This document shows positions 3,262-29,656 of a DNA stretch of 64,000 nt, piece after piece. Source of the stretch: an uncultured Bdellovibrio sp. (GTDB lineage Bacteria; Bdellovibrionota; UBA1018). The position numbers were made by a program, and so were the translations under genes. How positions within the stretch are numbered: position 1 is the stretch's first letter; every line of letters begins with the position of its first letter. Below the pieces are notes generated by a model. It had not been told where the DNA came from and searched no databases. It saw only the letters and a list, made by a program, of their open reading frames with translations. The stretch spans positions 1,192-65,191 of the forward strand of contig CAZBEI010000065.1 of NCBI GenBank assembly GCA_964490895.1. The letters run 5' to 3'.

Positions 3262-3834
3262 ATGAAGCTCAACAAATTGAAACAAAAAGGAAAAATGGTC
3301 TTTAATACTGAGGATGCACGAAAGATTGGAATTTCGCGACAACTCATTGCCCATTATCTCCATCAGGGATTGATTATACGACTTTCCCATGGTGTCTATC
3401 GTCTAGAAGGCACTGAGAGCATTGATTTTGAAGAACTGATTAAAGAGGTCCTAGCCGCTATTCCAAACTCCGTCATCGGTCTAAAAACGGCTCTAAGAAT
3501 CTATAACCTTACCGAAGAGCTGCCTTCCGAAATTGATATCATTGTGCCCAAAGAAAATGTTCCAAAAAGGAGGCTCGAAAACGTGCGTCTCTATCGCATC
3601 AAAGGGAATATTTATCGACACGATGTAAAACAAATCCATGGACTGCCCGTAACATCTCCTGAAAGAACAGTGATTGATCTTCTTAGATTCAATGAACCCA
3701 TGTCACTCATTTTGGAAGTCCTTGCTGAAGCGAAACAAAAAAGTATTGCCATTAGCATTCCTAAACTTAAAAAGATGAGTAAAATGTTTAGGGTTCAGGG
3801 AAAAATGAAGCAACTTCTTGAGGCGTGGGTATGA
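3262..3834 (+). CDS. AbiEi-family (type IV TA antitoxin-like) wHTH transcriptional regulator
   Basis: 190 aa. N-terminal wHTH (FNTEDARKIGISRQLIAHYLHQGLIIRLSHGVYRL) and a conserved C-terminal TSPERTVIDLL block typical of AbiEi. No AbiEii nucleotidyltransferase follows it. Confidence 0.5.
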   Translation: MKLNKLKQKGKMVFNTEDARKIGISRQLIAHYLHQGLIIRLSHGVYRLEGTESIDFEELIKEVLAAIPNSVIGLKTALRIYNLTEELPSEIDIIVPKENVPKRRLENVRLYRIKGNIYRHDVKQIHGLPVTSPERTVIDLLRFNEPMSLILEVLAEAKQKSIAISIPKLKKMSKMFRVQGKMKQLLEAWV

Positions 3835-9325: not shown

Positions 9326-10012
9326 CTAAGGCTCTTTTTTGAGAAGAGTCTCACCCACTCTTTTCCAATCACCAGGGGCTGTAAATTTTAAAGTATTCAT
9401 TATTTTTTGTATGTTAGAAAGTATGTCGTTTGCCCTGTAAATAGTGACCTCATAGTTATCTCCTTGGTCTTTTGATATTCCAGTCCACACAAAAAACCAC
9501 TTGTGCGGTACTCCTTTTAGTTGATAGACAAAACTAATAAGGTGGGGGGATTGTGGGTCGTTTGGATTTTCTTGCCAGTCTCGACTCCATATTTGGCTGG
9601 ATTCGAACTCATTTTTTCCCATGATTTTTTGATCAGTATGAATCACTAATCGTTGCACGTCATTTTGTTCATAGTAAATATCTGCATTCCCTGTGATTTT
9701 AAAGGTGTGCCCTAGGGTCGGAGTGAGTTCAATTTTTTCAGTTTTAAATCTTAAAGTGGGATCAGGAGACATCACTTCGTCTACTTTTAGGTCATAGGCA
9801 CCTTCGAAAGAAGAAGCGAGCTTCAGATCTCGATCTGTGAGTATCCCAATTAATCGCCCCTCTTCTTGGACTGGAAGGTGTCGAATTCGATACTCCCTCA
9901 TCATCTCAAGTGCTTTTTTTAAACCGATATCATTCCCAATAGAATGTGGCATTGGGGTCATGTATGTTTGAATTTGAGGTATTTGTTTCATCTTTCTTTC
10001 TCCTTGAGTCAA
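9326..10012 (-). CDS. CBS-pair domain protein with uncharacterised C-terminal domain
   Basis: The N-terminal ~130 aa show two CBS motifs (HLPVQEEGRLIGILTDRDL). First gene of the minus-strand operon. Confidence 0.55.
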   Translation of the reverse strand: MTQGERKMKQIPQIQTYMTPMPHSIGNDIGLKKALEMMREYRIRHLPVQEEGRLIGILTDRDLKLASSFEGAYDLKVDEVMSPDPTLRFKTEKIELTPTLGHTFKITGNADIYYEQNDVQRLVIHTDQKIMGKNEFESSQIWSRDWQENPNDPQSPHLISFVYQLKGVPHKWFFVWTGISKDQGDNYEVTIYRANDILSNIQKIMNTLKFTAPGDWKRVGETLLKKEP

Positions 10013-10184
10013 ATCTTTAAATGATTCTTAAAGAGCATTAGCAAATTCTAGGCCATTCGATACAAGCTACAAAAAATTGAAATAAAAAATAGGACGGGAC
10101 ATTTTGGCGCAGAAGTTGTTTTTTATGTCCCATCTCAACTTTTAAAAGAAATCCATTTGGCCTTGTTTACTCTAGCCATATAAG

Positions 10185-10200
10185 TGGCATTGATTGTGCA
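10185..10200 (+). promoter_or_regulatory. Sigma-54 (-24/-12) promoter-like motif TGGCAT-N5-GTGCA upstream of uspA
   Basis: GG and GC separated by the canonical 10 nt. Lies 37 bp upstream of the ATG at 10237. Confidence 0.45.
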
Positions 10201-10236
10201 TACTCTTCTTAAAAATACGGGAGGTGTTAAGACAAT

Positions 10237-11152
10237 GAAAATTCTTTGGTGCTTAGATGTATTTGAAGAAAAAAATGATATTTACAATCGCACAATCAAT
10301 GTTTTAGAGAATATTACAAAAGAACACGCAAGCTCAATTGAACCAGTCTACCTATTGAGCCCAGAGCAATTCGAGCTGCCTGTTGAGTTTACTCCGTCTT
10401 GGGTAGAGCACTATCATCCAAAAGCAAAAAAAGCAGCCGAGAATAAACTTAAGGAGCATCCCCTGCCTGGTCTTTTGCCTATAAAAATTATAGGCCACGA
10501 AAAGCCCTCAATTTCGGGGTCCATTACTTCGTTGCTCAATTATGCTAAAAAAGAAAATGCGAACCTCATTGTAGTTGGATCCCACGGCAGAAGGGGGCTC
10601 TCAAGACTTTTCGTGGGGAGCTTTGCAGAGGCACTGCTCCTTCGGTCTCCTCTTCCTATTATGATTGTGGGACCCCACTCCATAAATGTTGACGGATTTA
10701 AAGAAATCCTATTCCCCACAGATTTGGGTGAAAATTTTTATGGTGTTTTTAGAGAAGTTTTAAAATTAGCTGGGCAATTAAAAACAAAGCTTACTTTACT
10801 TCATGTCATTCCTAACCCCATTGAGCCAGTGGTACAAAGTGGCGCTTTTTTATTAGGTGGAGGCTGGGTACCGATTTCAGGTTATCTGGAGAAAGAGGAG
10901 AAAAAGCAGAGAGAAATTGCTGAGCGTTGGATCAGAAAAGCAAAAAGCCATGGGATAGACGCTCAGTTTGTTTTAGATTATTCAAAACATGGGGTATTAT
11001 CTGCTATCCACGAGCATGCAAAAAACCATTGTTTTATTGCAATGGCTGCTCAAAGTGGGCCTCTTTCGGCTGCATTTTTAGGAAGTATCACCAGGCAAGT
11101 TGCAAGGTCAGCTTCTTGTCCAGTATGGTTAGTAAGAGAAAATGTGTTATAA
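10237..11152 (+). CDS. Universal stress protein, tandem UspA domains
   Basis: RBS GGGAGGTG 9 nt upstream of the ATG at 10237; the track ORF starts earlier at 10184. Two Usp domains with ATP-binding-like G-x2-G-x9-G(S) (VVGSHGRRGLSRLFVGS). Confidence 0.7.
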
Positions 11153-11162
11153 AGGATAGAGA

Positions 11163-12599
11163 ATGATTACTCCCACAAAAGGAAAGGTCCTCATAGTAGA
11201 CGACGACATGGAGATGAGATCACTTCTTGAGGATTATCTCAAGAGTGAAAACTTTCAAGTAAAAAGCTTTGCAAATGGCGTGGAGGCCCTTGAAGACTTA
11301 GAACTCCAGAGCTCTGAGACTGATTTAATTATTTCAGATATTAAGATGCCCCAAATGGATGGGTTAGAACTTACTTCAAAGCTCACGCACATTTTACCCA
11401 AAATTCCGATTCTATTAATCACTGCTTTTGGAAGCATCGAAACAGCACTTGAGGCCATGAAAAGAGGCGCATTTCATTATATTGTAAAACCTTTCAAACT
11501 TGCCGAAATGGCCGTGCATATTGAGAAGGCTTTAGAACATAGAAGACTTCAAAGAGATAACGAGGCTCTTCGAAAAGAGATAAAACAGTCCTGGGGTTTA
11601 GGAAATATCCTTGGAAAAAGCCAGGCCATGAAATCGGTCTTTGATTTAGTAACTCGTGTTTCTCAAACAACCGCGAATGTGCTCATCATGGGTGAAAGCG
11701 GGACAGGCAAAGAAATGGTAGCTCGCGCCATACACAAAACGGGCCCCAGGGCTCAAAAGCCTTTTGTTGCTATCAATTGCACGGCTATTCCCGAAACTCT
11801 TTTAGAGTCAGAGCTCTTTGGACATGCAAAAGGGTCTTTTACGGGAGCGCATCAAAGAAAACAGGGACTCTTCGAAGAGGCTGAGGGTGGGACTCTCTTT
11901 TTAGATGAGATTGGGGATATGGATGGCACTCTTCAATCTAAACTACTCAGAGTGATTCAAGAAAAGAAAGTCAGAGCTGTTGGAGACAACACGCTTCGAG
12001 ACATCAATGTAAGAATTATTGCAGCTACTCATAAAGACTTAAAAGCAGCGATGAAAGATGGCCGCTTTCGTGAAGATCTTTACTACCGCTTGAGCGTTAT
12101 TCCTATTTTGATTCCGCCCTTAAGGGAACGAAAAGAAGATATCCCATTATTGGCAGAGCATTTTTTAAAAAAATACTCTGCTACAAATAACACAAATGTG
12201 CGTGGATTCACAAAAAGCGCGATGAATAAACTCCTCACCCTGCGTTGGGAAGGGAACGTGCGCGAACTTGAAAATATTATTGAAAGGGCTGTTGTTTTGA
12301 GTTCTGGCACTTTCATTGACGAAAGGGACTTGCCCTCTCCAGAAACTCAAAATCCAGAACAGTTTTTTTCTTCTTCTACAGGAGACTTCCCTACGATCGA
12401 TCAACTCGAAAAAAGATACATGGGTCTCGTGCTCGAAAAATCAGGAGGCAGAAAAGACAAAGCAGCACAGATTTTAGGGATTAATAGAAGGACTCTCTAC
12501 CGCAAAGAAAGAGAATATGGCTTTATTACAGAGCAAGGCGATGAAATCCAAGAACAAAGTGATAAAATCCAAGAGGAGGAGGAGACTAAAAAACTTTAA
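11163..12599 (+). CDS. Sigma-54-dependent Fis-family response regulator (NtrC-like: REC + AAA+ sigma-54 activator + HTH)
   Basis: REC domain with phospho-acceptor Asp (LIISDIKMP). Walker A GESGTGKE. GAFTGA-type loop GSFTGA. C-terminal Fis-like HTH. 10-bp gap after uspA, so cotranscribed. Confidence 0.85.
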   Translation: MITPTKGKVLIVDDDMEMRSLLEDYLKSENFQVKSFANGVEALEDLELQSSETDLIISDIKMPQMDGLELTSKLTHILPKIPILLITAFGSIETALEAMKRGAFHYIVKPFKLAEMAVHIEKALEHRRLQRDNEALRKEIKQSWGLGNILGKSQAMKSVFDLVTRVSQTTANVLIMGESGTGKEMVARAIHKTGPRAQKPFVAINCTAIPETLLESELFGHAKGSFTGAHQRKQGLFEEAEGGTLFLDEIGDMDGTLQSKLLRVIQEKKVRAVGDNTLRDINVRIIAATHKDLKAAMKDGRFREDLYYRLSVIPILIPPLRERKEDIPLLAEHFLKKYSATNNTNVRGFTKSAMNKLLTLRWEGNVRELENIIERAVVLSSGTFIDERDLPSPETQNPEQFFSSSTGDFPTIDQLEKRYMGLVLEKSGGRKDKAAQILGINRRTLYRKEREYGFITEQGDEIQEQSDKIQEEEETKKL

Positions 12600-13776
12600 A
12601 CCAAATTGTAAAAACACTTCCCACTCCCAATTCACTCAGGACAGAAATTTCGCCACCCATTTCCTTTAGCAATTGAACAACAATTGCTAAACCCAAGCCT
12701 GTACCTTCTCCCACGTCTTTTGTAGTAAAAAAAGGTTTAAAAAGCTTATTTGTATTTTTTGGGTCAATCCCGCAACCGGTGTCCTTGATTTCAATGGCCA
12801 CTTTTTGCCCATGAACACTTGCTTTAATGTACAGTTGGTGTCCTGTTTTTCTTCCATCTCGAATCGCCTTATGAATGGCTTGAATCGCGTTCATCACTAA
12901 ATTTAAAATCGTTTGTTCTAAACGCCCATAATCTGCTTTTACTTTTATTTCGTCTGAGATGTCTGTCTTAATTTCTACTCCATCTTCTTTAAGATTTTGC
13001 CCTACGAGAGACAAAACCTCGTGCACAACTTGTGTAATGCTCACTTCTTCAATACGAAAATCACTAGTCCTTCGCCCCATTCTTAAGAGTGAACGAATGA
13101 GCTTAGAAATTTTATCAATTTGAGAAATAATAATTTCCAAATCTTTTTTAGGTAATTCGTCTTTGGACTGTAATATTAAAAACTCAGCTCTTCCACGAAT
13201 CACTCCAAGCGGGGTGCCCACTTCGTGCGCAAGACCACTCGAGAGCAACCCAATGGAGGCAAGTCGGTCTTGATGAAAAATTTTTGCCTCAAGTTCTTTT
13301 TTCTGAGTCATGTTTAGAGCCACACCCATGTAGCCTAAAATTTCGCCCATTTCTGACTTAAATGGAGTAATGGTCAAAAATACGGGCACATACGTTCCAT
13401 CTTTGGCACGATTGACGAGCTCGCCTTTCCAATGTGCAATTTTAGGGTCCCGAATTTTTGACCACATTTCTCTGTAAAACTCTTTGGATTGGAACCCAGA
13501 ATGCAAAAGTCCGGGAGTTTGCCCAATGGCTTCTGCATTAGAATAACCATAAGTTTGGCTCCAAGCAGGGTTGACGTAGACCAGATGACCGTCTTTGTCA
13601 CTAATCATGATGGTTTCATTGCTGTCTTCGACACATCTAAAAAAGATATTTTTGGGATCGAAATTAATCTCTAAGGGCATGAGTCCTTTTAACATCATTT
13701 CGACGTTCTTGACAGCACTTGTCTTATAAGGACGAGAAAAAATGTCCTTTTTTTTTGATTTTTGGGACAAAAACAC
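12586..13776 (-). CDS. Soluble PAS-domain sensor histidine kinase
   Basis: PAS domain (MISDKDGHLVYVNPAWSQTYGYS), HisKA H-box LAHEVGTPLG, and HATPase_c G-boxes (DTGCGI, GTGLGL). Its 3' end overlaps the response-regulator stop by 14 bp, convergent. Confidence 0.8.
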   Translation of the reverse strand: MFLSQKSKKKDIFSRPYKTSAVKNVEMMLKGLMPLEINFDPKNIFFRCVEDSNETIMISDKDGHLVYVNPAWSQTYGYSNAEAIGQTPGLLHSGFQSKEFYREMWSKIRDPKIAHWKGELVNRAKDGTYVPVFLTITPFKSEMGEILGYMGVALNMTQKKELEAKIFHQDRLASIGLLSSGLAHEVGTPLGVIRGRAEFLILQSKDELPKKDLEIIISQIDKISKLIRSLLRMGRRTSDFRIEEVSITQVVHEVLSLVGQNLKEDGVEIKTDISDEIKVKADYGRLEQTILNLVMNAIQAIHKAIRDGRKTGHQLYIKASVHGQKVAIEIKDTGCGIDPKNTNKLFKPFFTTKDVGEGTGLGLAIVVQLLKEMGGEISVLSELGVGSVFTIWFKVF

Positions 13777-13814
13777 CTCCCCCTGGTTTTCATGAAGCCT
13801 GAAACCGGGTCACT

Positions 13815-13830
13815 TGGTTTCACTTATGCA
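13815..13830 (+). promoter_or_regulatory. Sigma-54 promoter-like motif TGGTTT-N5-ATGCA upstream of cytochrome c
   Basis: GG..GC spacing is correct. Shares TTATGCA at -12 with the nirK motif. Lies 40 bp upstream of the ATG at 13870. Confidence 0.4.
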
Positions 13831-13869
13831 ACTTTGGTGCTAAAGTAAAAGTCTAATAGGAGATCAAAA

Positions 13870-14226
13870 ATGCACAAAATAAAATGCTTGGTTGGATTGG
13901 GTTTTATATTTTTGTATCAGGGAGCTTCGGCAGGTCCTCCAAAGTCTTCGCCCGAACTTATTGCAAAAGGAAAAGCCTCTTATGTGACCAACTGTTTGAC
14001 CTGTCATGGCGAAAATGGCGATGGCAATGGTCCTGCTGGACAGTACATGAATCCAAAACCTAGATCCTATACAAAAGATAAGTTTAAAAAGGGAGAGAAA
14101 CCTGAACAGGTTTTTAAAACCATTACAGCAGGGATTGATGGAACAGCAATGACTGGGTTTGGTCATTTGCCAGAAGACGAAAGATGGGGCCTTGTGTATT
14201 ACGTGCTTTCGTTTAAGAAAAAATAG
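13870..14226 (+). CDS. Class I c-type cytochrome (secreted, mono-heme), likely electron donor to NirK
   Basis: Signal peptide, CLTCH haem motif, distal Met region. RBS GGAG 9 nt upstream. Confidence 0.7.
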   Translation: MHKIKCLVGLGFIFLYQGASAGPPKSSPELIAKGKASYVTNCLTCHGENGDGNGPAGQYMNPKPRSYTKDKFKKGEKPEQVFKTITAGIDGTAMTGFGHLPEDERWGLVYYVLSFKKK

Positions 14227-14230
14227 CTAC

Positions 14231-14590
14231 TTACTCCAATTGTTTTATTTCTAGTTCGGGCATCTCTATCAAAAAAGCACGTGAAATCTCGCCAAAAGAA
14301 GTACCTTTTTGATAGACAAAGCTGGCCGCAGATTGTTCTGGAGCAAACCTCAAAGTTTTTGAATCCACAGCAGAAATTTTAGAAAACGCTTTCTTGAGGA
14401 GAGGAATTTGTTCTTTTGAGTGAAAGCCTTTGATTTCAATGACTACATAATGATTTCTAGTTTTTTCTGCCATTCTTTTATTTTTGTAAGAATAAACAGA
14501 AGCGGCCTTATCCCCCACACAAAAACCACAGGCAATGGCCTGAACGTGTGCCACTAAAAACAAAAACCCAGCCAAATAGATTATTTTCAT
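14231..14590 (-). CDS. Hypothetical small lipoprotein (CGFC motif)
   Basis: 119 aa, signal peptide with AIACGFC. No recognisable domain. Confidence 0.35.
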   Translation of the reverse strand: MKIIYLAGFLFLVAHVQAIACGFCVGDKAASVYSYKNKRMAEKTRNHYVVIEIKGFHSKEQIPLLKKAFSKISAVDSKTLRFAPEQSAASFVYQKGTSFGEISRAFLIEMPELEIKQLE

Positions 14591-14725
14591 ACCTCTCTCT
14601 TATTCATAAAATGGGCCAAGCAAAAAACCTAATTATTTTACTCTCTCAAGCTTAAAACAGAACCACAGATGGGACTAAATGTCACTCGCATGAGGCATAT
14701 TTTCTTCCTGCCGTGGCTTCTATTT

Positions 14726-14746
14726 TTTAAATCTAACGGATTTAAA
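14726..14746 (+). promoter_or_regulatory. Perfect 8-N5-8 palindrome TTTAAATC-taacg-GATTTAAA upstream of nirK (candidate regulator or IHF-type site)
   Basis: Seen directly in the sequence, 12 bp upstream of the -24 element of the nirK promoter motif. Confidence 0.3.
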
Positions 14747-14757
14747 GGGTTTTTTTT

Positions 14758-14773
14758 TGGCAAGGTTTATGCA
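14758..14773 (+). promoter_or_regulatory. Sigma-54 promoter-like motif TGGCAA-N5-ATGCA upstream of nirK
   Basis: Canonical GG/GC spacing, 31 bp upstream of the ATG at 14804. Confidence 0.45.
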
Positions 14774-14803
14774 TTTAATAAGACTTAATAGGAGGGTTTT
14801 ATC

Positions 14804-15829
14804 ATGCGTTTGGCCATTTGTTTTTTTGTGTTTATGTCTGGAAATTTATATGCGGGGGATAATCCTGACCCCTCAAAAATGATTTTTGGCCCACCCCCAG
14901 CCATTGTTCATAATAAAATTTTAGAAGGTCCTGTGATGCAGGGAGCAACGCTCCTTCCATTTGCTCCTAAACTCTCTGGTGAGCGAACCCTCAACGTTCG
15001 CTTGGATGTCACTCACAAAGTTCAAGAACTTGCAGATGGAGTTAAAATGATGGTTTGGACGTTTGGAGATTCTGTGCCAGGTCCAACTATTCGAGTCAGG
15101 CAGGGGGATCGAATTAAATTCACAATGGCAAATCGCAGCACTGAAACTGCAGCCATTACTCCTCCCATGCCTCATTCGATGGATTTTCATGCCTCTATGG
15201 TGAGCCCACAAGACAAATTTAGACCCATCTCACCGGGGCAAACATTAGAATTTGAATTCGTCGCAAATTATCCAGGGGTATACATGTACCACTGTGGAAC
15301 ACCCATGATTTTACATCACTTAGCAATGGGAATGTACGGCGCTGTCATTGTAGAACCCAAAGAAGGGTATCCCACAAAAGTAGACCGCGAGTATGTTCTT
15401 GTTCAGTCAGAATTTTATCCCCAAAAAAATGTGAATAAAAATGGAAAGAAAACAAGTGTGGTCGAATTAGACATGAACGCAGTTATCCACAAACAGGCCT
15501 CTATTGTTGCTTTTAATGGAAAGGCCTTTCGCCACCGTGACGAACCGCTCAAGGCAAAAGTAGGAGAAAGAGTGAGGCTCTTTGTGCTCAATGCAGGACC
15601 CAGTGGGACTTCGAGTTTTCATGTTGTTGGAACCATTTGGGACCGTGTTTGGCTTGAGGGAAATCCAAGCAATGAACTTCGAGGAGGTCAATCTGTGCTT
15701 TTAGGCGCAAGCAACTCAGCTATCGTTGAATTTATTATTCCAGAAAAAGGAAAATACATTATGGTCGATCATGAATTTGCTGACGCTAATGCAGGAGCAC
15801 TGGGATTAATTGATGCAACAGGAGATTAG
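14804..15829 (+). CDS. nirK: Copper-containing nitrite reductase NirK
   Basis: 341 aa with signal peptide. Cu-ligand blocks PHSMDFHA and YMYHCGTPMILHHLAMGMYGAVIVEP match the type 1 / type 2 copper sites of NirK. RBS AGGAGGG. Confidence 0.85.
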   Translation: MRLAICFFVFMSGNLYAGDNPDPSKMIFGPPPAIVHNKILEGPVMQGATLLPFAPKLSGERTLNVRLDVTHKVQELADGVKMMVWTFGDSVPGPTIRVRQGDRIKFTMANRSTETAAITPPMPHSMDFHASMVSPQDKFRPISPGQTLEFEFVANYPGVYMYHCGTPMILHHLAMGMYGAVIVEPKEGYPTKVDREYVLVQSEFYPQKNVNKNGKKTSVVELDMNAVIHKQASIVAFNGKAFRHRDEPLKAKVGERVRLFVLNAGPSGTSSFHVVGTIWDRVWLEGNPSNELRGGQSVLLGASNSAIVEFIIPEKGKYIMVDHEFADANAGALGLIDATGD

Positions 15830-15842
15830 CACAGAGTCAAAC

Positions 15843-16022
15843 GCAGCATGAGGGTTCTTCGGCTGCACTCTGTTCAACAGCACGGTGAATATAGTATTTA
15901 AAACACGGCTCACATCGTGCCGAGATTGCCCAGACCATCGCTGTGAGGATCTTAAATTTTTGAGGCGCTTCCCCATCAGAAAAAATAGCCCTCTTCCTCA
16001 TTTGGTCAATAGGCGTTGGTAG
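15843..16022 (-). pseudogene. Fragment of a second carboxymuconolactone-decarboxylase (CMD/AhpD-like) gene, in frame immediately after the stop of the upstream CMD gene
   Basis: Translates to LPTPIDQMRKRAIFSDGEAPQKFKILTAMVWAISARCEPCFKYYIHRAV-EQSAAEEPSCCV. This is about 90% identical to 45253-45627 but lacks the first ~24 codons and has a 39-codon internal in-frame deletion. Confidence 0.55.
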
Positions 16023-16619
16023 CTACTCTGGCTCTAAACGGGTCGGACAAAACCCCTGAGGTGGAATTTTTAGGGCCGCATTAAACTTACTCGAAAGGTT
16101 CTGATAAGCGATGAGAGCTGTCAACTCAATGATTTGGTTTTCATCAAAATGTATTTTTAAACGCTCAAAGAGTGTGTCCTCAATTTTTTTGTCAGATCGG
16201 GTCATTGCCTCCGTGTAAGCTAACGCTGCTCTTTCCTGTTCAGTATACGCAGGATCGCTTTCATAATTTGCTAAAGCCAGTATTTTTTCCATGGGCACCC
16301 CACGCTTCTGTAAAAGAGCACTATTAATATCAATACAAAAGGAGCAGTGATTAATCTGCGAAACACGCACAGTCACAAGCGATCTCAGTGCGGGATTTAG
16401 CGGAGAATTTTTTCTGTCGATTGCACTATAGAGAAATTGAAGCCCCATCAAAAGACGAGGCGAACGTCCCCAAAGTCGTGTAGGCTCAAGACTCGATCCA
16501 TACTTTTTTTTCTGTGCTCGAAAAATTAAACGCACCCAAAATGGGTACTCCCTTTCTGGTTTAGCTGCAATTCTCATAGGCTCCCCTTTCATTTCTGCAA
16601 GAATATCACTTTCTCTCAC
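16023..16619 (-). CDS. Carboxymuconolactone decarboxylase (CMD/AhpD-like) family protein
   Basis: 198 aa. HCSFCID CxxC-type motif and helical CMD-family pattern. Confidence 0.6.
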   Translation of the reverse strand: MRESDILAEMKGEPMRIAAKPEREYPFWVRLIFRAQKKKYGSSLEPTRLWGRSPRLLMGLQFLYSAIDRKNSPLNPALRSLVTVRVSQINHCSFCIDINSALLQKRGVPMEKILALANYESDPAYTEQERAALAYTEAMTRSDKKIEDTLFERLKIHFDENQIIELTALIAYQNLSSKFNAALKIPPQGFCPTRLEPE

Positions 16620-16738
16620 ACTTATATGTGCAAATATTTTTCAAGTCTCTTAATTATGGCGGGACATTTTGCCGCAAAATTTGTTTTTTTGTCTCATCAT
16701 GATTTTAAAAAACTCTTTTACTGCTTAAATAATTACAT

Positions 16739-16754
16739 GGCACTGATTATGCAT
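16739..16754 (+). promoter_or_regulatory. Sigma-54 promoter-like motif TGGCAC-N5-ATGCA upstream of the PLP-decarboxylase gene
   Basis: Near-consensus -24/-12. Lies inside a ~170-bp block duplicated from the uspA upstream region. Confidence 0.5.
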
Positions 16755-16821
16755 GTTAATCTTAAAAATAGGGGGCGAACATAACAAATTCTTTGGTACT
16801 TCATTCATTTGAAGCAAAAAA

Positions 16822-18546
16822 ATGACATCAAAGTGTAATACAAAAGACATTGCACTCAAGGGATTTTTCTTGGGCCCACAAGCTGAAAATGGCCCTTGGG
16901 TGTTAGAATTTATTCAAAGAGTTTTTGAGCGTTGGTTTAAGTGGAGAAGATCTCTTTATCCTGCAGATGGGAAAGGGATATCAAAATCAGATCAAAACAC
17001 CTCTGACTTTTTAGAAAGAAATCAGAATTTCAAGCTGCAGCTGGAGCGCCTCCTTTTACGTTTTGAAAACGAATTGCCAAAATTTTCTCCTCGGTACATG
17101 GGTCATATGTTTTCTGAAATTTCTCTCCCCGCACTGTTTGGACATATTGTGACCTTACTTCACAATCCCAATAATCTTTCTGGAGAATCTTCTCGAGTTG
17201 GGACTCAACTCGAAAACGAAGCCATCGGAATGTTAGCCCAAATGGTTGGTTATTCGGGAGCATGCAAAGGTCATTTTACTTCTGGGGGAACCCTTGCAAA
17301 CTTTGAAGCCATCATTCGCTCTCGAGCTCGTATTTTTTCTTGGCTTGAGCAGGGAGCCCTTGTTAAGCAAAACAACCTAAAAGAATTTGATCTTTTTTCT
17401 GCTTCACACATGGGTTGGGAATGTTTTGATCGATATCCTAAAACATTCGATGGACTCCATCTCTCTGAAAGTAATCCCTGGGAGCTTGCAAAAAAAATCG
17501 GATCTATTTTTCAGACTCCTTTTAGTGGCGGGGTCTTGCTCGTTCCAGAGAATAAACATTATTCGTGGAAAAAAGGAGTGTCTATTTTAGGACTAGGCGA
17601 TGAGGCTTTTTGGCCAATTTCATTAAACTCAGAAGGAAAACTTTGCACCCAGAGTCTCAATCAAAGAATCCATCAGGCAAGAAAAGAAAATCGGCCTATT
17701 TTTATGGTTGTCTCTGTCGCTGGAACTACGGAGCTTGGAGAAATTGACCCTGTTTCAGAAGTTCAGGAAATTTTAAATCATTGGAAAACAAACCATGGAG
17801 TTCATATTTGGCATCATGTGGATGCTGCTTATGGTGGATTTTTTTGCACACTCAAAAACCAGAACAAAAACCTCGCGGCACTTTCACAAGTAGACTCCAT
17901 TACGTTAGACCCACATAAATTAGGATATGTTCCGTTTTCATCGGGAGCTTTCTTAGTCAAAGAAAGGAGAAATTATTACATCAAGTCTTACGAAACTCCT
18001 TATCTCCAGTTTAATGAAAATGAAGACCCAGGTCCATTTACAATCGAAGGTTCTAGATCCGCAGCAGGAGCGGTGGCCACTTGGTTGACTGGGAAAACAA
18101 TTGGATTTGATGAAAATGGCTATGGACGAATTTTAGGTCGCACTTTGGACATTAAGCAAAATTTAGAAAAATTACTTCAAAAATCAAATTTGCCCATTCA
18201 AATCGCACCCCACACAGATACAAATATTCTTTGCTTTTGCGTGGTGGCCGCTCAAGGAGAACTCCTTTCGAAAACAAATGATAAAACCTTACACATCTAT
18301 GAGGCTCTTTCTGCAAAGGCAAGAGGCCCATTTATAGTCTCAAAAACAAAGCTTTATTTTAAGTCCTACAGACAGTACCTGGAGTCTTTTATTGGCTCAT
18401 GGCATGGAAAGATCGATCAGGACTCCCTTGTTTTAATCCGAATGTGCTTAATGAATCCCTTTTTTGATTCTGTAGAAATGGACGTCCAGTTTTCTCGAGA
18501 ATTTGTAGAGTGTATACGAAATTTGACTAAATATGAGGTAGGATAA
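16822..18546 (+). CDS. Pyridoxal-phosphate-dependent decarboxylase (group II, fold type I)
   Basis: 574 aa. Contains SGGTLANFEAI and DPHKLGYVP, the PLP-lysine block of group II decarboxylases. Confidence 0.7.
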   Translation: MTSKCNTKDIALKGFFLGPQAENGPWVLEFIQRVFERWFKWRRSLYPADGKGISKSDQNTSDFLERNQNFKLQLERLLLRFENELPKFSPRYMGHMFSEISLPALFGHIVTLLHNPNNLSGESSRVGTQLENEAIGMLAQMVGYSGACKGHFTSGGTLANFEAIIRSRARIFSWLEQGALVKQNNLKEFDLFSASHMGWECFDRYPKTFDGLHLSESNPWELAKKIGSIFQTPFSGGVLLVPENKHYSWKKGVSILGLGDEAFWPISLNSEGKLCTQSLNQRIHQARKENRPIFMVVSVAGTTELGEIDPVSEVQEILNHWKTNHGVHIWHHVDAAYGGFFCTLKNQNKNLAALSQVDSITLDPHKLGYVPFSSGAFLVKERRNYYIKSYETPYLQFNENEDPGPFTIEGSRSAAGAVATWLTGKTIGFDENGYGRILGRTLDIKQNLEKLLQKSNLPIQIAPHTDTNILCFCVVAAQGELLSKTNDKTLHIYEALSAKARGPFIVSKTKLYFKSYRQYLESFIGSWHGKIDQDSLVLIRMCLMNPFFDSVEMDVQFSREFVECIRNLTKYEVG

Positions 18547-18965
18547 AAGGGCCTCAAAAAGCAAAAAACTGCCACTCCAGAAACACACACATAAAGCCAC
18601 AGGCTCATTGCCCAGCGTGCGATCCTTCGATGGTGTGTATACCTTTTGGTCATCGCAAAGAACAAGCTAGTGACCACTAGTGGAGGAACCGCTGCTGCAA
18701 ATATTGTGTGTGTAAAAAGGATAGGGAAGTAGATGGACTTTATAACCCAACTCCCCTCAAAACCGACGTGTCCTACATGCATGTGGTAAATTCCATAGAG
18801 TCCGAGAAAAAGTAGAGATAAAACAAAGGCTGTGAGTACAAAAAACCGATGCACCATGGATCGTTTTTTTCGAATGAAAAAATATCCCAGTATAAGCAAA
18901 AGAGCGCTCGTTGAGTTCAGTCCTGCGTTGATGGAGGGTATGCTGTAAATGTTGATCTCACCCAT
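18417..18965 (-). CDS. DUF420-family membrane protein (accompanies caa3 oxidase clusters)
   Basis: Four TM helices. Start taken at MGEINIY with RBS AGAGGTGG; the track ORF extends to 19010. Its 3' end overlaps the convergent decarboxylase by 130 bp. Confidence 0.55.
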   Translation of the reverse strand: MGEINIYSIPSINAGLNSTSALLLILGYFFIRKKRSMVHRFFVLTAFVLSLLFLGLYGIYHMHVGHVGFEGSWVIKSIYFPILFTHTIFAAAVPPLVVTSLFFAMTKRYTHHRRIARWAMSLWLYVCVSGVAVFCFLRPFYPTSYLVKFRIHSTNSRENWTSISTESKKGFIKHIRIKTRES

Positions 18966-19142
18966 CGCCACCTCTTCCAAATTTTCTATATATCCAAAAA
19001 GCCAAGCCACACATCACCAGCGGCAGCACACTCAATAAGACTGTGACTAGAAAATAGGCATCCAAAGTGCGCCTGGGAAATCCTTGACCTGCACAAACAC
19101 TGCAAGCCCATGAGTCGTTCACTAGGACGTCCCAAAACAGAC

Positions 19143-26261: not shown

Positions 26262-27179
26262 GTGCATATCACTTTGGAAGAAGCCCGCACTTTGGATGCT
26301 GTTGTTCAGTTCGGAAGTTTTTCGAAAGCAGCACAAAATCTTCGCAAGAGTCATTCTGCTATCATCTATTCGCTGAAATCCTTAGAAACACAAACGGGTT
26401 TGCGCATTCTCGACAGAACGCAGTATCGAACCACGCTCACGCCCACAGGGAAACGCGTGTGGGAGCAGTGTAAAAAACTTTTGTCTTCTGAGCAAGATTT
26501 TACACACCTTTGCCGGAATCTTGGCTCTGGATGGGAGCCCTACCTAAAAATTGTGGTCGACGGACTCATTCCATTCGATTCCATTTTGCAGGCGCTCGAA
26601 AAACTAAGCCAACAGAAAGTTCCCACCAAAATCATGCTCTATGAGGAGTTTCTAGGTGGCGTGGAAAACAGTTTTATAGAAAATAGTGCGGATGTTATGA
26701 TCTCGGTGATTCCTCCAGAAAAAACTGTGCTTGAACCCATAAAACTTTGCCCGATCAGTAGCTACTTGGTCGTGAACAAGGAGCACTTCTTGGCTAAAAC
26801 ACGCAAGCGCCTGACGATTAGCCAGCTGCAAGAGTATCCCTTTCTCACCGTACGAGGATCGGATACAAGACTCAATCTCACAACCTCTGCCTTCGAGGAA
26901 TCATCGGCTTATCACCTGAACAATTTTCAGTCGAAGAAAGCAGCCATTCTCAAAGGGCTAGGTTTTGGTTGGCTACCGGAGTATTTGATCCATAAGGAAC
27001 TTGCAAAGAAAGAGCTTAAAATTGTTTACTGGGAGAAAAGCAGCGCGCACACTTACTTTCCTCATATCTATTGTCGAGGAACAAAGCATTTAGGTAAGGC
27101 TGGCTTGTCGTTTCTAAATGCATTGCTTTCATTTCAGCAGGTACCGAACTGTGAAGAATGTGCTCTTAAAACAAAATAA
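26262..27179 (+). CDS. LysR-family transcriptional regulator (divergent from hmgA-hppD-phhA)
   Basis: N-terminal HTH (LDAVVQFGSFSKAAQNLRKSHSAIIYSLKSLE). GTG start with RBS AAGAGGA. Confidence 0.8.
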   Translation: MHITLEEARTLDAVVQFGSFSKAAQNLRKSHSAIIYSLKSLETQTGLRILDRTQYRTTLTPTGKRVWEQCKKLLSSEQDFTHLCRNLGSGWEPYLKIVVDGLIPFDSILQALEKLSQQKVPTKIMLYEEFLGGVENSFIENSADVMISVIPPEKTVLEPIKLCPISSYLVVNKEHFLAKTRKRLTISQLQEYPFLTVRGSDTRLNLTTSAFEESSAYHLNNFQSKKAAILKGLGFGWLPEYLIHKELAKKELKIVYWEKSSAHTYFPHIYCRGTKHLGKAGLSFLNALLSFQQVPNCEECALKTK

Positions 27180-27267
27180 AAAAGCAAGATTGTGACAAAA
27201 AGGTATAATTAGAGAATTATTGTCTCATTTTTTTTCCAACATTAGAAACTTTATGCTTAATCCCACC

Positions 27268-27283
27268 TGGCATATTATTTGCA
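27268..27283 (+). promoter_or_regulatory. Sigma-54 promoter-like motif TGGCAT-N5-TTGCA (inside repeated element copy A)
   Basis: Near-consensus -24/-12. A TTGTGACAA palindrome lies ~75 bp upstream (27189-27197). Confidence 0.5.
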
Positions 27284-27301
27284 TCAGCACTGTACTTAAA
27301 A

Positions 27302-29510: not shown

Positions 29511-29624
29511 GTGTGCTCAAAACACTATCCATATAAAAAGCAAGATTGTGACAAAAAAGCATTTTTTTGAGAATTATTGTCCCGTTTTTTTAAAACGTTA
29601 GAAACTTTAATGCTTAACATTGCC

Positions 29625-29640
29625 TGGCCTATTACTTGCA
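29625..29640 (+). promoter_or_regulatory. Sigma-54 promoter-like motif TGGCCT-N5-TTGCA (inside repeated element copy B) upstream of the Mo-enzyme operon
   Basis: Near-consensus -24/-12, 17 bp upstream of the ATG at 29657. The TTGTGACAA palindrome lies ~75 bp upstream (29544-29552). Confidence 0.5.
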
Positions 29641-29656
29641 CCAATAAAGACTACAA

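What the first reader, a model, noticed from the sequence alone, without database searches (positions are those of the whole stretch)
10091..16824. uspA 5' region (promoter plus first codons) duplicated in front of the PLP-decarboxylase gene
Blocks ~10091-10278 and ~16659-16824 share GGGACATTTTGSCGCA..TTGTTTTTT..TGTCyCATC, a sigma-54 motif (TGGCAT-tgatt-GTGCA versus TGGCAC-tgatt-ATGCA), and the uspA start region (gacaATGAAAATTCTTTGGTGCTTAG versus aacaaATTCTTTGGTACTTCAT). In the second copy the uspA ATG is deleted, and the decarboxylase ATG falls in another frame of the ancestral uspA codons. This is a second case of a transplanted sigma-54 control region. The GGGACAT..ATGTCCC inverted repeat 60-90 bp upstream of the -24 element is a candidate upstream activator sequence distinct from TTGTGACAA.
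Basis: seen in the sequence. Interest (0 to 1): 0.55.

Follow-up and report, generated by a model that had tools for sequence, protein, structure and literature searches.

The report
Copied sigma-54 promoter drives a decarboxylase
About 195 bases carrying the activator site, sigma-54 promoter, ribosome site and first 15 codons of a stress-protein gene were copied in front of an unrelated decarboxylase gene 6.5 kb away, which now starts at an ATG made from the old codons; this is a clear but ordinary case of bacterial promoter reuse.

Summary
Window 10087-10281 aligns in the same order with 16652-16828 at 144/197 identity (Smith-Waterman 106; shuffles 20.6±2.5). Three blocks are each significant alone: the activator site, the -24/-12 promoter through the ribosome site, and usp codons 2-16. 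The spacer between site and promoter is not significant.

The direction is usp to decarboxylase. The copied codons encode the K-I-L-W-x-x-D-x-F-E N-terminus conserved across this tandem-USP family. In addition, 25 of 48 USP orthologues carry a sense-strand TGGCA-N8-GC 10-120 nt upstream. Orthologues with the same divergent CBS gene and a ~70%-identical NtrC-type activator carry TGTCYC repeats spaced 21 nt apart upstream of it.

Similarity ends at ATGAYAT, one or two codons before the first conserved decarboxylase residues. The decarboxylase therefore uses an out-of-frame usp ATG with its own GAAG-A7 ribosome site.

Most likely mechanism (inferred): the activator encoded directly after usp, paired with the adjacent PAS kinase, activates both promoters. 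The closest characterised analogue is the Myxococcus NmpR hypoxia regulon.

The pair fits the published class of "putative mobile promoters": a new member of a known kind. A second, independent duplicated sigma-54 region lies at 27.2/29.5 kb. Interest is moderate (0.4).

The parts
10087..10281 (+). Copy 1 (source): the usp control region plus usp codons 1-16. This is the full extent of similarity to copy 2.
10096..10135 (+). Upstream activator site, copy 1: GGGACATTTTGGCGCAGAAGTTGTTTTTTATGTCCCATC. It has an inverted GGGACA arm (10096-10101), a degenerate distal half-site TGGCGC (10105-10110) and a proximal half-site TGTCCC (10126-10131) 21 nt later. It lies 89-54 nt upstream of the -24 element.
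   Evidence: related sites in orthologous loci
10185..10200 (+). Sigma-54-type -24/-12 element TGGCATTGATTGTGCA (GG-N10-GC). The predicted transcription start is about 10211 (inferred from the -12 position).
   Evidence: the same element class is upstream of 25/48 USP orthologues
10207..10224 (+). Conserved start-site-proximal block TCTTAAAAATA plus the Shine-Dalgarno sequence GGGAGG of usp.
   Evidence: (D4)
10235..11152 (+). Tandem universal-stress-protein gene (305 aa, two Usp domains). Codons 2-12 encode the family-conserved K-I-L-W-x-x-D-x-F-E-E.
10265..10277 (+). Cryptic out-of-frame translation-initiation region inside usp (GAAG-A7-ATG; ATG at 10275-10277, frame +1). It is the counterpart of the decarboxylase start.
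   Evidence: direct reading
11163..12599 (+). NtrC-type enhancer-binding response regulator (REC, sigma-54 AAA+ with a GSFTGA loop, HTH_8). It lies 10 nt after usp and is the only such activator in the window. It is the proposed binder of both upstream sites.
   Evidence: ~70% orthologues next to USP/CBS in L012, L017, L028
12586..13776 (-). PAS histidine kinase, convergent with and overlapping the activator gene by 14 nt. It is the presumed cognate sensor.
16652..16828 (+). Copy 2 (derived): it fills almost the whole intergenic region between the CMD-family gene and the decarboxylase gene.
16661..16698 (+). Upstream activator site, copy 2: GGGACATTTTGCCGCAAAATTTGTTTTTTTGTCTCATC. Half-sites are TGCCGC (16670-16675) and TGTCTC (16690-16695), spaced 20 nt apart. 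It lies 77-43 nt upstream of the -24 element.
16738..16753 (+). Sigma-54-type -24/-12 element TGGCACTGATTATGCA. The predicted transcription start is about 16764 (inferred).
16760..16775 (+). Conserved TCTTAAAAATA block plus an orphaned Shine-Dalgarno-like GGGGG. No canonical start codon follows at a working distance.
16786..16821 (+). Leader derived from usp codons 2-14. It is now non-coding, with two 1-nt indels. Its 3' end (GAAG-C-A7) serves as the decarboxylase ribosome-binding region.
16822..18546 (+). Group II PLP-dependent decarboxylase (574 aa). M-T-S are followed by the first family-conserved residues KCNTKDIALKGFFLGPQAEN. The ATG and the next 4 nt lie inside the usp-derived similarity.
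14671..14773 (+). Probable further regulon member, not a sequence copy: GGGAC-TAAAT-GTCAC (14671-14685) lies 73 nt upstream of TGGCAAGGTTTATGCA (14758-14773), before the NirK-like copper nitrite reductase gene (14804-15829).
   Evidence: the tile scan shows no extended similarity to the two copies

Best explanation
The two blocks are paralogous sigma-54 control regions produced by a duplication within this genome. About 195 nt of the tandem-USP gene's 5' region was copied or recombined directly onto the 5' end of a PLP-dependent decarboxylase gene 6.5 kb downstream. The copied segment carries:
- the enhancer (UAS);
- the -24/-12 promoter;
- the transcription-start region;
- the Shine-Dalgarno sequence;
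- the first ~15 codons.

The copy replaced the decarboxylase's own upstream region and its variable N-terminal codons. The usp ATG was lost from the copy. The decarboxylase is translated from an ATG that pre-exists, out of frame, inside usp (AAT GAT read as A-ATG-AT) with its own GAAG-A7 ribosome site. The former usp codons therefore now form a ~58-nt leader.

How it works (inferred, not shown):
1. The NtrC-type response regulator encoded immediately after usp is phosphorylated by the adjacent PAS histidine kinase.
2. It binds the TTTGTCYC-type half-sites of both UASs and oligomerises.
3. It drives open-complex formation by sigma-54 RNA polymerase at TGGCAY-TGATT-RTGCA.

This would give positive autoregulation of the usp-regulator operon and co-induction of the decarboxylase. 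The NirK-like gene and the 27.2/29.5-kb genes would probably be co-induced too. The signal is probably low oxygen or N-oxide stress, judged from gene content and from the Myxococcus NmpR analogue.
For: Shown by computation:
1. The similarity keeps the same order and is far above chance, overall and in three separate blocks. It includes positions with no role in sigma-54 or activator recognition: the TGATT spacer, TCTTAAAAATA and 37/44 positions of usp codons. These positions vary freely among orthologous USP promoters.
2. Direction. About 45 USP orthologues (35-50% identity) begin ..K(I/V)(I/L)W(A/S)(I/V)D(A/V)F(E/D).., so the copied codons are native to usp. A TGGCA-N8-GC element lies on the sense strand 10-120 nt upstream of 25/48 orthologues. 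That compares with 1 on the antisense strand and 0.3 expected from the hit rate in coding sequence.
3. The tandem TGTCYC-N14-16-TGTCYC occurs 13 times in 480 kb of fetched loci, against 0-2 in shuffles. In L012, L027/28, L033, L037 and L064 it lies 100-155 nt upstream of the USP start, upstream of the -24/-12 element.
4. Every locus sharing the window's divergent CBS-USP arrangement has this tandem or a relaxed form of it. L012, L017 and L028 also carry a ~70%-identical activator with an identical HTH, GGRKDKAAQILGINRRTLYRKE.
5. Both window copies share the same departures from that family consensus: a distal half-site TG[G/C]CGC and the spacer TTGTTTTTT. This argues for common descent of the two copies.
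6. Junction. Decarboxylase homologues have a variable 2-24-residue N-terminal extension followed by conserved KC(D/N)P(K)(D/E)(I/V)ALKSFFLGPQAEN. The window protein is M-T-S-KCNTKDIALK. Similarity to usp ends within codon 3, and an in-frame TGA at 16810 excludes a longer ORF.
7. The flanking genes are unrelated: Usp versus PLP decarboxylase, and CBS versus CMD.
8. An independent assembly (L007) reproduces the CBS-usp-activator-kinase locus with the same site-to-promoter spacing.

From the literature: NtrC-like NmpR of M. xanthus binds paired sites upstream of sigma-54 promoters. It autoregulates and controls a CBS-protein gene, a USP gene and a P-type ATPase/cbb3 operon under hypoxia (PMC11841059). 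In L006 a near-identical UAS precedes a P-type ATPase gene next to a PAS kinase.
Against: - Nothing is experimental. The transcription starts, sigma-54 dependence and the identity of the binding protein are all inferred.
- rpoN is not in the 64-kb window, and the rest of the genome could not be searched.
- The nearest relatives are only ~50% identical at protein level. The event therefore cannot be dated, and no intermediate state was seen.
- Copy 2's half-sites are weaker than the family consensus (TGCCGC, 20-nt spacing).
- The site-to-promoter distance differs by 11-12 nt between the copies. It ranges from 47 to 70 nt among relatives, so no strict helical phasing supports the model.
- Two of five decarboxylase orthologue loci already show sigma-54-like promoters with a related motif (L008, L009). 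The event may therefore not have created a new regulatory link.
- A one-step insertion cannot be told apart from duplication of a whole usp gene followed by deletion.
Confidence: 0.8

Rival explanations
1. The remnant comes from a duplicated gene rather than a promoter-only copy. A whole second usp gene with its promoter once sat upstream of the decarboxylase as a usp'-decarboxylase operon. A later deletion removed everything from usp' codon ~16 to the decarboxylase start and fused them.
For: USP paralogues do occur side by side in this family: L012 has Usp-PLD-Usp in one operon. The copy includes coding sequence, as expected for a gene duplicate. In the published survey, over 60% of promoter pre-clusters were really promoter-plus-gene duplications (PMC3488235).
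Against: No USP-like sequence remains beyond codon ~16. The decarboxylase aligns with its orthologues from residue 4. No decarboxylase orthologue locus examined has a USP gene upstream (L008-L011, L066, L067). This route needs two events with a deletion endpoint placed exactly at a usable ATG. The end state and function are the same as in the best explanation.
Confidence: 0.2
2. There was no duplication. The two regions look alike only because both are bound by the same activator and by sigma-54 polymerase, so the similarity is convergence on shared regulatory motifs within one regulon.
For: The UAS and -24/-12 blocks are exactly the parts expected to be constrained. The spacer between them is not significantly similar. 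The nirK promoter shares motif-level features without extended similarity.
Against: - The similarity covers non-recognition positions: the -24/-12 spacer TGATT, TCTTAAAAATA around the start site, and 37/44 positions of usp coding sequence (0/2000 shuffles for that block alone).
- Orthologous USP promoters under the same kind of control differ freely at all these positions.
- The two copies share the same departures from the family half-site consensus.
- Convergence cannot explain usp codons appearing in a non-coding leader.
Confidence: 0.03
3. The ~195-nt unit is a small mobile or repeated element, such as a MITE-like or REP-like promoter cassette, that spreads through the genome. The two blocks are two of many insertions.
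For: It has an inverted repeat (GGGACA..TGTCCC). A second pair of duplicated sigma-54 regions exists in the same 64 kb. Published mobile-promoter families include IS ends and MITEs (PMC3488235).
Against: - There are only two copies in 64 kb, and no third tile scores above background.
- The inverted repeat is internal rather than terminal, and it is conserved at orthologous USP loci in distant relatives as a regulatory site.
- One end of the unit is usp coding sequence.
- No flanking direct repeats were seen on reading the ends.
- A scan of 185,579 representative genomes for the UAS found no multi-copy genome.
Confidence: 0.04
4. The shared sequence downstream of the promoter is a structured cis-regulatory RNA (riboswitch, thermometer or sRNA target). 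It would be kept in both mRNAs for post-transcriptional control, which would explain its conservation in the non-coding copy.
For: AAATTCTTTGGT[G/A]CTT is 15/16 identical even though it is non-coding in copy 2. In copy 2, UUCUUUGG can pair with AUCAAAG just after the decarboxylase AUG.
Against: The minimum-free-energy z-scores are -0.9 and 0.0 for the short leader folds (-1.0 and +0.6 for the longer ones), so they are not distinguishable from shuffles. The predicted pairings differ between the two copies. There is no Rfam match at gathering threshold, or at E<=1 apart from a 19-bit chance hit. With only two sequences, covariation cannot be assessed.
Confidence: 0.08

Closest known systems
Putative mobile promoters / promoter propagation (Matus-Garcia, Nijveen & van Passel, NAR 2012, PMC3488235)
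   Same: Homologous promoter-region sequence lies upstream of non-homologous genes within one genome. The pair meets the published operational criteria: at least 50 nt at 80% identity or more, with unrelated upstream and downstream CDSs. Two-member families are the commonest class in that survey (68%).
   Different: - This pair is older and more diverged: 73% overall, against a mean of 92% for published pairs.
- It is a sigma-54 enhancer-plus-promoter unit rather than an unspecified promoter.
- Its direction can be assigned.
- It carries 15 source-gene codons, one of which supplies the recipient's start codon.
NmpRSTU / NmpR oxygen-utilisation regulon of Myxococcus xanthus (J Bacteriol 2025, PMC11841059)
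   Same: An NtrC-like response regulator acts from paired upstream sites at sigma-54 promoters and is autoregulated. Its targets include a CBS-domain protein gene at the head of the regulator operon, a USP gene and a P-type ATPase/cbb3 oxidase operon. Here the activator sits with CBS and USP genes. A near-identical UAS precedes a P-type ATPase gene in L006, and the neighbourhood is respiratory (NirK, cytochrome c, cox).
   Different: - NmpR's recognition sequence is GCGCA-N5-TGCGC. The sites here are TTTGTCYC repeats, with GGGAC-N5-GTCNC in some. Only a GCGCA half-site occurs, in copy 1.
- The kinase here is a single PAS kinase, not the protoglobin NmpU/NmpS/NmpT relay.
- Orthology to NmpR was not tested.
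- The phylum differs: the window's best hits are Bdellovibrionota-like.
Classical NtrC-type enhancer/sigma-54 promoters (e.g. glnAp2; established knowledge)
   Same: A GG-N10-GC promoter with activator sites roughly 50-150 bp upstream and multiple half-sites. The activator has REC, AAA+ (GAFTGA-type loop, here GSFTGA) and HTH_8 domains.
   Different: No NCBIfam equivalog cut-off is reached. AtoC, NtrC and ZraR are the best hits and all fall below their cut-offs. The site sequence is different, and no IHF site could be established.
Horizontal regulatory transfer / regulatory-region switching (Oren et al., PNAS 2014; from my own knowledge, paper not read here)
   Same: A regulatory region is replaced independently of the gene it controls.
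   Different: That work concerns exchange between strains by homologous recombination at the same locus. Here the donor is a different locus of the same genome, and the event created a new 5' end for the recipient ORF.

Membership tests
Sigma-54-dependent promoter with enhancer | -24 GG and -12 GC separated by 10 nt, close to TGGCAC-N5-TTGCA | tested here: met
   TGGCATTGATTGTGCA (10185) matches 9/11 consensus positions and TGGCACTGATTATGCA (16738) matches 10/11. Both lie in intergenic DNA on the sense strand, 50 and 84 nt before the start codons.
Sigma-54-dependent promoter with enhancer | A bacterial enhancer-binding protein (AAA+ with a GAFTGA-type loop) is encoded in the genome | tested here: met
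   11163-12599 has REC, Sigma54_activat (E 6e-73) and HTH_8 domains, with GESGTGK, ESELFGH and GSFTGA motifs.
Sigma-54-dependent promoter with enhancer | rpoN (sigma-54) is present in the genome | not testable with these tools
   No RpoN-box ORF occurs in the 64-kb window. The rest of the MAG is not available: the exact-protein look-up failed, and the genome is not among the GTDB representatives scanned.
Sigma-54-dependent promoter with enhancer | Activator-binding sites within ~50-150 bp upstream, conserved in orthologous promoters | tested here: met
   The UAS lies at -89..-54 (copy 1) and -77..-43 (copy 2) relative to the -24 element. Tandem TGTCYC sites lie upstream of the sigma-54 element in L012, L027/28, L033, L037 and L064: 13 hits in the fetched loci against 0-2 in shuffles.
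Sigma-54-dependent promoter with enhancer | Transcription start ~12 nt after the -12 GC, dependent on activator and RpoN | not testable with these tools
   This needs RNA-end mapping and genetics. Only the predicted starts (~10211, ~16764) can be given.
Putative mobile promoter (PMP; PMC3488235) | Promoter-region alignment of at least 50 nt with at least 80% identity within one genome | tested here: met
   The best 50-column stretch is 41/50 (82%) and the best 60-column stretch is 49/60 (81.7%). The criteria are quoted from the paper.
Putative mobile promoter (PMP; PMC3488235) | Downstream CDSs are not homologous | tested here: met
   Usp (PF00582) versus Pyridoxal_deC (PF00282). BLASTP best E-value is 0.16.
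Putative mobile promoter (PMP; PMC3488235) | Upstream CDSs are not homologous | tested here: met
   CBS (PF00571) versus CMD (PF02627). BLASTP best E-value is 0.34.
NmpR-type hypoxia regulon (PMC11841059) | NtrC-like regulator whose targets include CBS-domain and USP genes, with autoregulation | tested here: inconclusive
   CBS and USP flank the UAS, and the regulator is co-oriented 10 nt after usp. The same module occurs in L012, L017 and L028. Regulation itself is inferred, not shown.
NmpR-type hypoxia regulon (PMC11841059) | Binding consensus GCGCA-N5-TGCGC in two sites 14-15 nt apart | tested here: not met
   Copy 1 has GCGCA-GAAGT-TGTTT and copy 2 has CCGCA-AAATT-TGTTT, so only one half-site is present. 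The element conserved in relatives is TTTGTCYC.
NmpR-type hypoxia regulon (PMC11841059) | Multi-kinase relay with protoglobin sensor NmpU, and orthology of the regulator to NmpR | not tested
   Only one PAS kinase is adjacent. No NmpR or NmpU sequence was available for comparison.
MITE / IS-derived repeat | Terminal inverted repeats, target-site duplication and many copies | tested here: not met
   There are two copies in 64 kb. The inverted repeat is internal. One end is usp coding sequence, and no flanking direct repeats are seen. The genome-wide count is not testable.
Known cis-regulatory RNA (Rfam) | Match to a covariance model, or a fold more stable than shuffles and conserved between the copies | tested here: not met
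   No match at gathering threshold. With E<=1 the only hit is an 18.7-bit Ocean-V match (gathering score 75). Fold z-scores run from -1.0 to +0.6, and the predicted structures differ between the copies.

The most novel reading that the evidence does not exclude
In this lineage, copying of whole enhancer-plus-sigma-54-promoter cassettes would be a recurrent way of recruiting genes to one NtrC-type hypoxia/N-oxide regulon. Two independent pairs occur in 64 kb, all four sharing a TTGTCYC half-site, with a single activator gene in the window. In addition, the usp-derived leader of the decarboxylase mRNA (AAAUUCUUUGGUACUU, 15/16 conserved although non-coding) would be kept because it is functional. 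It could act as a short upstream ORF whose stop overlaps the decarboxylase AUG (ATGA). Alternatively, it could be a shared target for a trans-acting RNA or protein that co-regulates usp and the decarboxylase after transcription.
Probability: 0.15. Interest if true: 0.6.

Novelty: new member of a known kind. Interest (0 to 1): 0.4.

Why it matters
The pair is an unusually legible example of how a bacterial regulon changes its membership. The donor, the recipient, the direction and the junction, which falls within codon 3 (1-2 codons before the first conserved residues), can all be read from sequence. It also shows that a cryptic out-of-frame start site inside a gene can be recruited as the start codon of another gene.

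The comparative work additionally defines a conserved, previously undescribed module in Bdellovibrionota-like bacteria. The module consists of a divergent CBS gene, a tandem USP gene and an NtrC-type activator, together with a sigma-54 promoter and TTTGTCYC repeats at 21-nt spacing. It parallels the experimentally characterised NmpR hypoxia regulon of Myxococcus.

This gives a testable prediction for what controls a decarboxylase family that sits beside nirK, nosZ and nnrS genes in many genomes. It does not reveal a new kind of mechanism.

Tried and rejected
1. Looking for the organism's own genome and further copies.
   - Exact-protein look-ups of the decarboxylase failed.
   - The scan of GTDB representatives for the UAS found neither window copy, so the genome-wide copy number is unknown. 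The contig is an NCBI record of 66,762 nt.
   - L007 is the same organism from a read-level assembly and adds no divergence.
2. Closer relatives for dating the event. None exists in the protein collection. The next decarboxylase is 54% identical and the next USP 50%.
3. RNA-element hypothesis. Rfam at gathering threshold and at E<=1, and folding with shuffles, gave nothing.
4. tRNA or mobile-element context. There are no tRNA genes in the window.
5. Helical phasing of the UAS relative to the promoter. The 11-12-nt difference between the copies is suggestive, but relatives range from 54 to 70 nt, so no claim is made.
6. IHF site in the spacer. Only 2-mismatch matches to WATCAANNNNTTR were seen by eye in AT-rich DNA, so this was not pursued.
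7. A sigma-54 promoter for the kinase gene. The candidate TAGCACCAAAGTTGCA (13842-13827, minus strand) lacks the invariant GG and is discounted.
8. Reverse direction (decarboxylase to usp). Rejected because of the conserved USP N-terminus and the ancestral sigma-54 element at USP orthologues.
9. Longer or alternative decarboxylase start. Excluded by the in-frame TGA at 16810 and by conservation starting at residue 4.
10. Zoogloea hits of the UAS scan. I first took these for chance. They are a perfect palindrome upstream of a sigma-54 promoter, but the local activator has a different HTH. They are therefore not used as evidence for this regulon.
11. Literature search for this decarboxylase family in denitrification clusters. 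Nothing relevant was found.

Full report
OBSERVATION

The two blocks exist as described. The repeat finder reports three direct-repeat families in the same order, with offsets 6565, 6553 and 6547:
- 10087-10124 / 16652-16689, 84% identical;
- 10185-10221 / 16738-16774, 81% identical;
- 10239-10281 / 16786-16828, 72% ungapped.

A Smith-Waterman alignment of the two intergenic regions plus their first codons scores 106. Five hundred dinucleotide-preserving shuffles give 20.6±2.5, with a maximum of 29. I tiled the whole window on both strands against either copy. Nothing outside the two loci scored above 33, so there are exactly two copies in 64 kb.

A global alignment of 10087-10281 with 16652-16828 has 144 identical columns out of 197 (73%). 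The best 50-column stretch is 82% identical.

Taken separately, the UAS block, the promoter-to-Shine-Dalgarno block and the usp-codon block each beat all 2000 shuffles. The usp-codon block is 37/44 identical with two single-base indels. The 38-49-nt spacer between UAS and promoter is at background.

GENES

Pfam assignments:
- 9326-10012 (-): CBS-domain protein.
- 10235-11152 (+): protein with two Usp domains (305 aa, the same start as in the NCBI record).
- 11163-12599 (+): REC / sigma-54 AAA+ / HTH_8 response regulator.
- 12586-13776 (-): PAS histidine kinase.
- 13870-14226 (+): cytochrome c.
- 14804-15829 (+): copper nitrite reductase-like protein (TIGR02376 at 197 bits, below its cut-off).
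- 16023-16619 (-): CMD/AhpD-like protein.
- 16822-18546 (+): group II PLP decarboxylase.
- 18417-19010 (-): DUF420 protein. The ORFs that follow look like cytochrome oxidase subunit genes (read from the translations; no family search was run on them).

The regulator is AtoC/NtrC/ZraR-like but reaches no NCBIfam equivalog cut-off. It is the only sigma-54 activator in the window, and no rpoN is present there. The flanking genes of the two copies are unrelated.

ORGANISM

The contig is an NCBI metagenome-assembled record of 66,762 nt. The nearest decarboxylase homologue is 54% identical and the nearest USP 50%. The hits that carry names are mostly Bdellovibrio, Pseudobdellovibrionaceae and Bdellovibrionota, plus one Bradymonadaceae/Lujinxingiaceae record and one labelled Deltaproteobacteria. 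I treat the affiliation as a deep Bdellovibrionota-like lineage. This is inferred from best hits and is not established.

An independent read-level assembly (L007) reproduces the CBS-usp-regulator-kinase locus, with an identical regulator and identical UAS-to-promoter spacing. The feature is therefore not an assembly artefact. Two copies that differ at 27% of positions could not be one in any case.

DIRECTION OF THE COPY

About 45 orthologues of the tandem USP begin with ..K(I/V)(I/L)W(A/S)(I/V)D(A/V)F(E/D)... The window's codons AAA ATT CTT TGG TGC TTA GAT GTA TTT GAA GAA encode exactly this motif. In copy 2 the same bases carry two frame-breaking indels and encode nothing. Copy 1 is therefore the source.

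I fetched 51 metagenomic USP loci plus two from genomes. A TGGCA-N8-GC element lies on the sense strand 10-120 nt before the start codon in 25 of 48 loci. That compares with 1 on the antisense strand and 0.3 expected from the hit rate in coding sequence. Sigma-54 control is thus ancestral for this USP family.

THE UPSTREAM SITE

Aligning the orthologous promoters at the -24 element shows repeated TTTGTC(C/T)C half-sites, typically two with a G-to-G distance of 21 nt.

The strict pattern TGTCYC-N14-16-TGTCYC occurs 13 times in 480 kb of fetched DNA, against 0-2 in block shuffles. In L012, L027/28, L033, L037 and L064 it lies 100-155 nt before the USP start, upstream of the sigma-54 element.

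All loci that share the window's divergent CBS-USP arrangement have this pattern or a relaxed form of it (L012, L025, L027/28, L033, L064). L012, L017 and L028 also encode a ~70%-identical regulator whose HTH is identical to the window's, GGRKDKAAQILGINRRTLYRKE. In L017 the CBS-regulator intergenic region contains AGTTGTTTTTTAT, a 13-mer identical to the window UAS, together with CATTTTGTCTC.

Several sites add an inverted GGGAC 5 nt upstream of the first half-site:
- window usp and decarboxylase: GGGAC-ATTTT-G[G/C]CGC;
- window nirK: GGGAC-TAAAT-GTCAC;
- L006: GGGAC-ATTTT-GTCAT;
- L008: GGGGC-ATTTT-GTCAC.

Both window copies share the same degenerate distal half-site (TGGCGC / TGCCGC instead of TGTCYC) and the same TTGTTTTTT filler. 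These are shared derived states that again indicate descent of one copy from the other.

That the adjacent regulator binds these sites is an inference. It rests on co-occurrence and on the general behaviour of NtrC-type regulators.

THE JUNCTION

Decarboxylase homologues have a variable 2-24-residue N-terminal extension followed by conserved KC(D/N)P(K)(D/E)(I/V)ALKSFFLGPQAEN. The window protein reads M-T-S-KCNTKDIALKGFFLGPQAEN. An in-frame TGA at 16810 rules out a longer ORF.

Similarity to usp runs through ATGA[T/C]AT and stops, which is within decarboxylase codon 3. In usp, the corresponding ATG (10275-10277) straddles codons N14/D15 in frame +1. It is preceded by GAAG and seven A residues, which amounts to a cryptic ribosome-binding region.

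The simplest reading is that recombination placed the decarboxylase ORF in frame with this pre-existing cryptic start, discarding the gene's own 5' end.

The usp ATG itself is absent from copy 2. It falls in a patch that is 17 nt in copy 1 and 11 nt in copy 2, so deletion and substitution cannot be distinguished. The old GGGGG Shine-Dalgarno sequence is left without a canonical start codon at working distance.

Counting 12 nt from the -12 GC gives predicted transcription starts at ~10211 and ~16764. The leaders would then be ~24 and ~58 nt long (inference).

WAS THE DECARBOXYLASE NEWLY RECRUITED?

Orthologue loci place this decarboxylase beside other respiratory and N-oxide genes:
- nosZ/nosD, cytochrome c and nnrS (L008);
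- a PAS kinase (39% identical to the window's) and a NirK-cytochrome c fusion (L009);
- a hemerythrin-PAS protein in B. bacteriovorus (L011);
- NirK-cytochrome c and nnrS (L066);
- a molybdopterin oxidoreductase (L067).

L008 has TGGCAAGATCCATGCA 24 nt before the ATG, with CGGGGCATTTTGTCAC nearby. L009 has TGGCACGTGAATCGCA before the kinase-decarboxylase pair and a TGTCCC-N15-TGTCTC tandem. L011, L066 and L067 show no sigma-54 element.

Regulation of this gene is therefore variable between lineages. The event here may have replaced a promoter within an existing regulon rather than creating a new link. No orthologue has a USP gene upstream.

ALTERNATIVES

- Convergence on shared motifs cannot explain the similarity at non-recognition positions or in usp codons.
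- A mobile element is unlikely. There are two copies, the inverted repeat is internal rather than terminal, one end is coding sequence, and the site is conserved at orthologous loci. The genome-wide copy number is nevertheless unknown.
- A structured RNA is unsupported.
- Duplication of a whole usp gene followed by deletion remains possible and would give the same end state.

One point is unexplained. AAATTCTTTGGT[G/A]CTT is 15/16 identical although it is non-coding in copy 2, while the UAS-promoter spacer has decayed. Possible reasons are listed in the notebook: short upstream ORFs, one ending in an ATGA overlap with the decarboxylase start; pairing with decarboxylase codons 3-5; or a more recent conversion tract.

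COMPARISON WITH WHAT IS KNOWN

The pair meets the operational definition of a putative mobile promoter: at least 50 nt at 80% identity or more, upstream of non-homologous genes, with non-homologous upstream genes too (PMC3488235). Two-member families are the commonest class in that survey. It is therefore a new member of a known kind. It is more diverged than typical published pairs, and it is unusual in that direction and junction can be read and a start codon was captured.

Functionally, the closest characterised system is NmpRSTU of Myxococcus xanthus. There an NtrC-like regulator binds paired sites upstream of sigma-54 promoters and autoregulates. Under hypoxia it induces a CBS-protein gene, a USP gene, a P-type ATPase/cbb3 operon and hemN-hemerythrin (PMC11841059).

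The parallels are as follows:
- CBS and USP genes lie at the regulator locus.
- A near-identical UAS precedes a P-type ATPase gene in L006.
- A hemerythrin-PAS gene lies next to the B. bacteriovorus decarboxylase.

Together they make 'works like NmpR' plausible. Membership fails on the one defining feature I could test, because the GCGCA-N5-TGCGC consensus is absent. Orthology was not tested.

VERDICT

The mechanism rests on strong comparative evidence but is experimentally untested. Novelty: new member of a known kind. Interest: 0.4.

Noticed in passing
window 27150-27320 and 29506-29680: This is a second, independent pair of homologous sigma-54 control regions (78% column identity). Each has TTGTGACAA (27190 / 29546), ATTATTGTC[T/C]C about 30 nt later, and TGGCATATTATTTGCA (27268) or TGGCCTATTACTTGCA (29625). 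The similarity runs into the ATGCAAAAAA start codons (27302 / 29657). The downstream proteins (251 and 269 aa, no Pfam hit) are not similar to each other. The second is followed by a 1224-aa molybdopterin oxidoreductase-like ORF. The TTGTCYC element is shared with the usp/decarboxylase UAS.
   Followed up: partly
window 14671-14773: The NirK-like nitrite reductase gene (14804-15829) has its own sigma-54-type element TGGCAAGGTTTATGCA. A site GGGAC-TAAAT-GTCAC lies 73 nt upstream of it. The gene is probably in the same regulon, but the region is not a sequence copy of the usp region.
   Followed up: partly
window 16822-18546; loci L008, L009, L011, L066, L067: This PLP-decarboxylase family is tyrosine-decarboxylase-like and falls below every NCBIfam cut-off. 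It is repeatedly found next to denitrification or NO-related genes: nosZ/nosD, NirK-cytochrome c fusions, nnrS, PAS kinases, hemerythrin-PAS and radical SAM genes. A literature search found no description of this association, and its substrate and role are unknown.
   Followed up: partly
L001 1278-1315 (also L002, L004; Zoogloea MAGs): A perfect palindrome, GGGACATTTTGTCCA-TGGGC-TGGACAAAATGTCCC, lies about 60-90 nt upstream of a minus-strand sigma-54 element (TGGCTCGGAGCTTGCA). That element precedes a Tat-signal, selenocysteine-containing formate dehydrogenase alpha subunit gene (..NQARV*HGPTV..). The site lies next to a kinase and an NtrC-type activator that is 40% identical to the window's but has a different HTH. 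It looks like a real enhancer of an unrelated regulon that happens to share the half-site.
   Followed up: partly
L006 2545-2583 (Bdellovibrionota MAG185): GGGACATTTTGTCATATTGACGCAAGAAGTTGTCCCATC has the same length and ends as the window UAS, and its half-sites are 21 nt apart. It lies upstream of a P-type ATPase gene and beside a PAS kinase 31% identical to the window's. No sigma-54 element passed my scan there; only a weak cGGCAT-N6-TTGAT was seen by eye. The arrangement parallels the NmpR-controlled P-type ATPase of Myxococcus.
   Followed up: partly
window 13763-13842: The 5' end of the PAS kinase gene (minus strand, GTG at 13776) reads GTGTTTTTGTCCCAA, which contains the TTTGTCCC half-site. 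A sigma-54-like TAGCACCAAAGTTGCA lies 50 nt upstream on the same strand, but it has AG in place of the invariant GG. L009 has a similar GTTTTGTCCC at the start of its kinase gene.
   Followed up: no
window 10265-10307: Inside usp, the cryptic GAAG-A7-ATG (ATG at 10275) opens a 10-codon out-of-frame ORF (ATG ATA TTT ACA ATC GCA CAA TCA ATG TTT TAG). There is no evidence that it is used, but it shows that the captured start site pre-existed in the donor.
   Followed up: no
L066 about 3430-3450: The decarboxylase orthologue in L066 lacks a sigma-54 element but has TGATCTGGGTCATAA upstream, which resembles an FNR/CRP-family box (TTGAT-N4-ATCAA). This suggests that regulation of this gene differs between lineages.
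   Followed up: no
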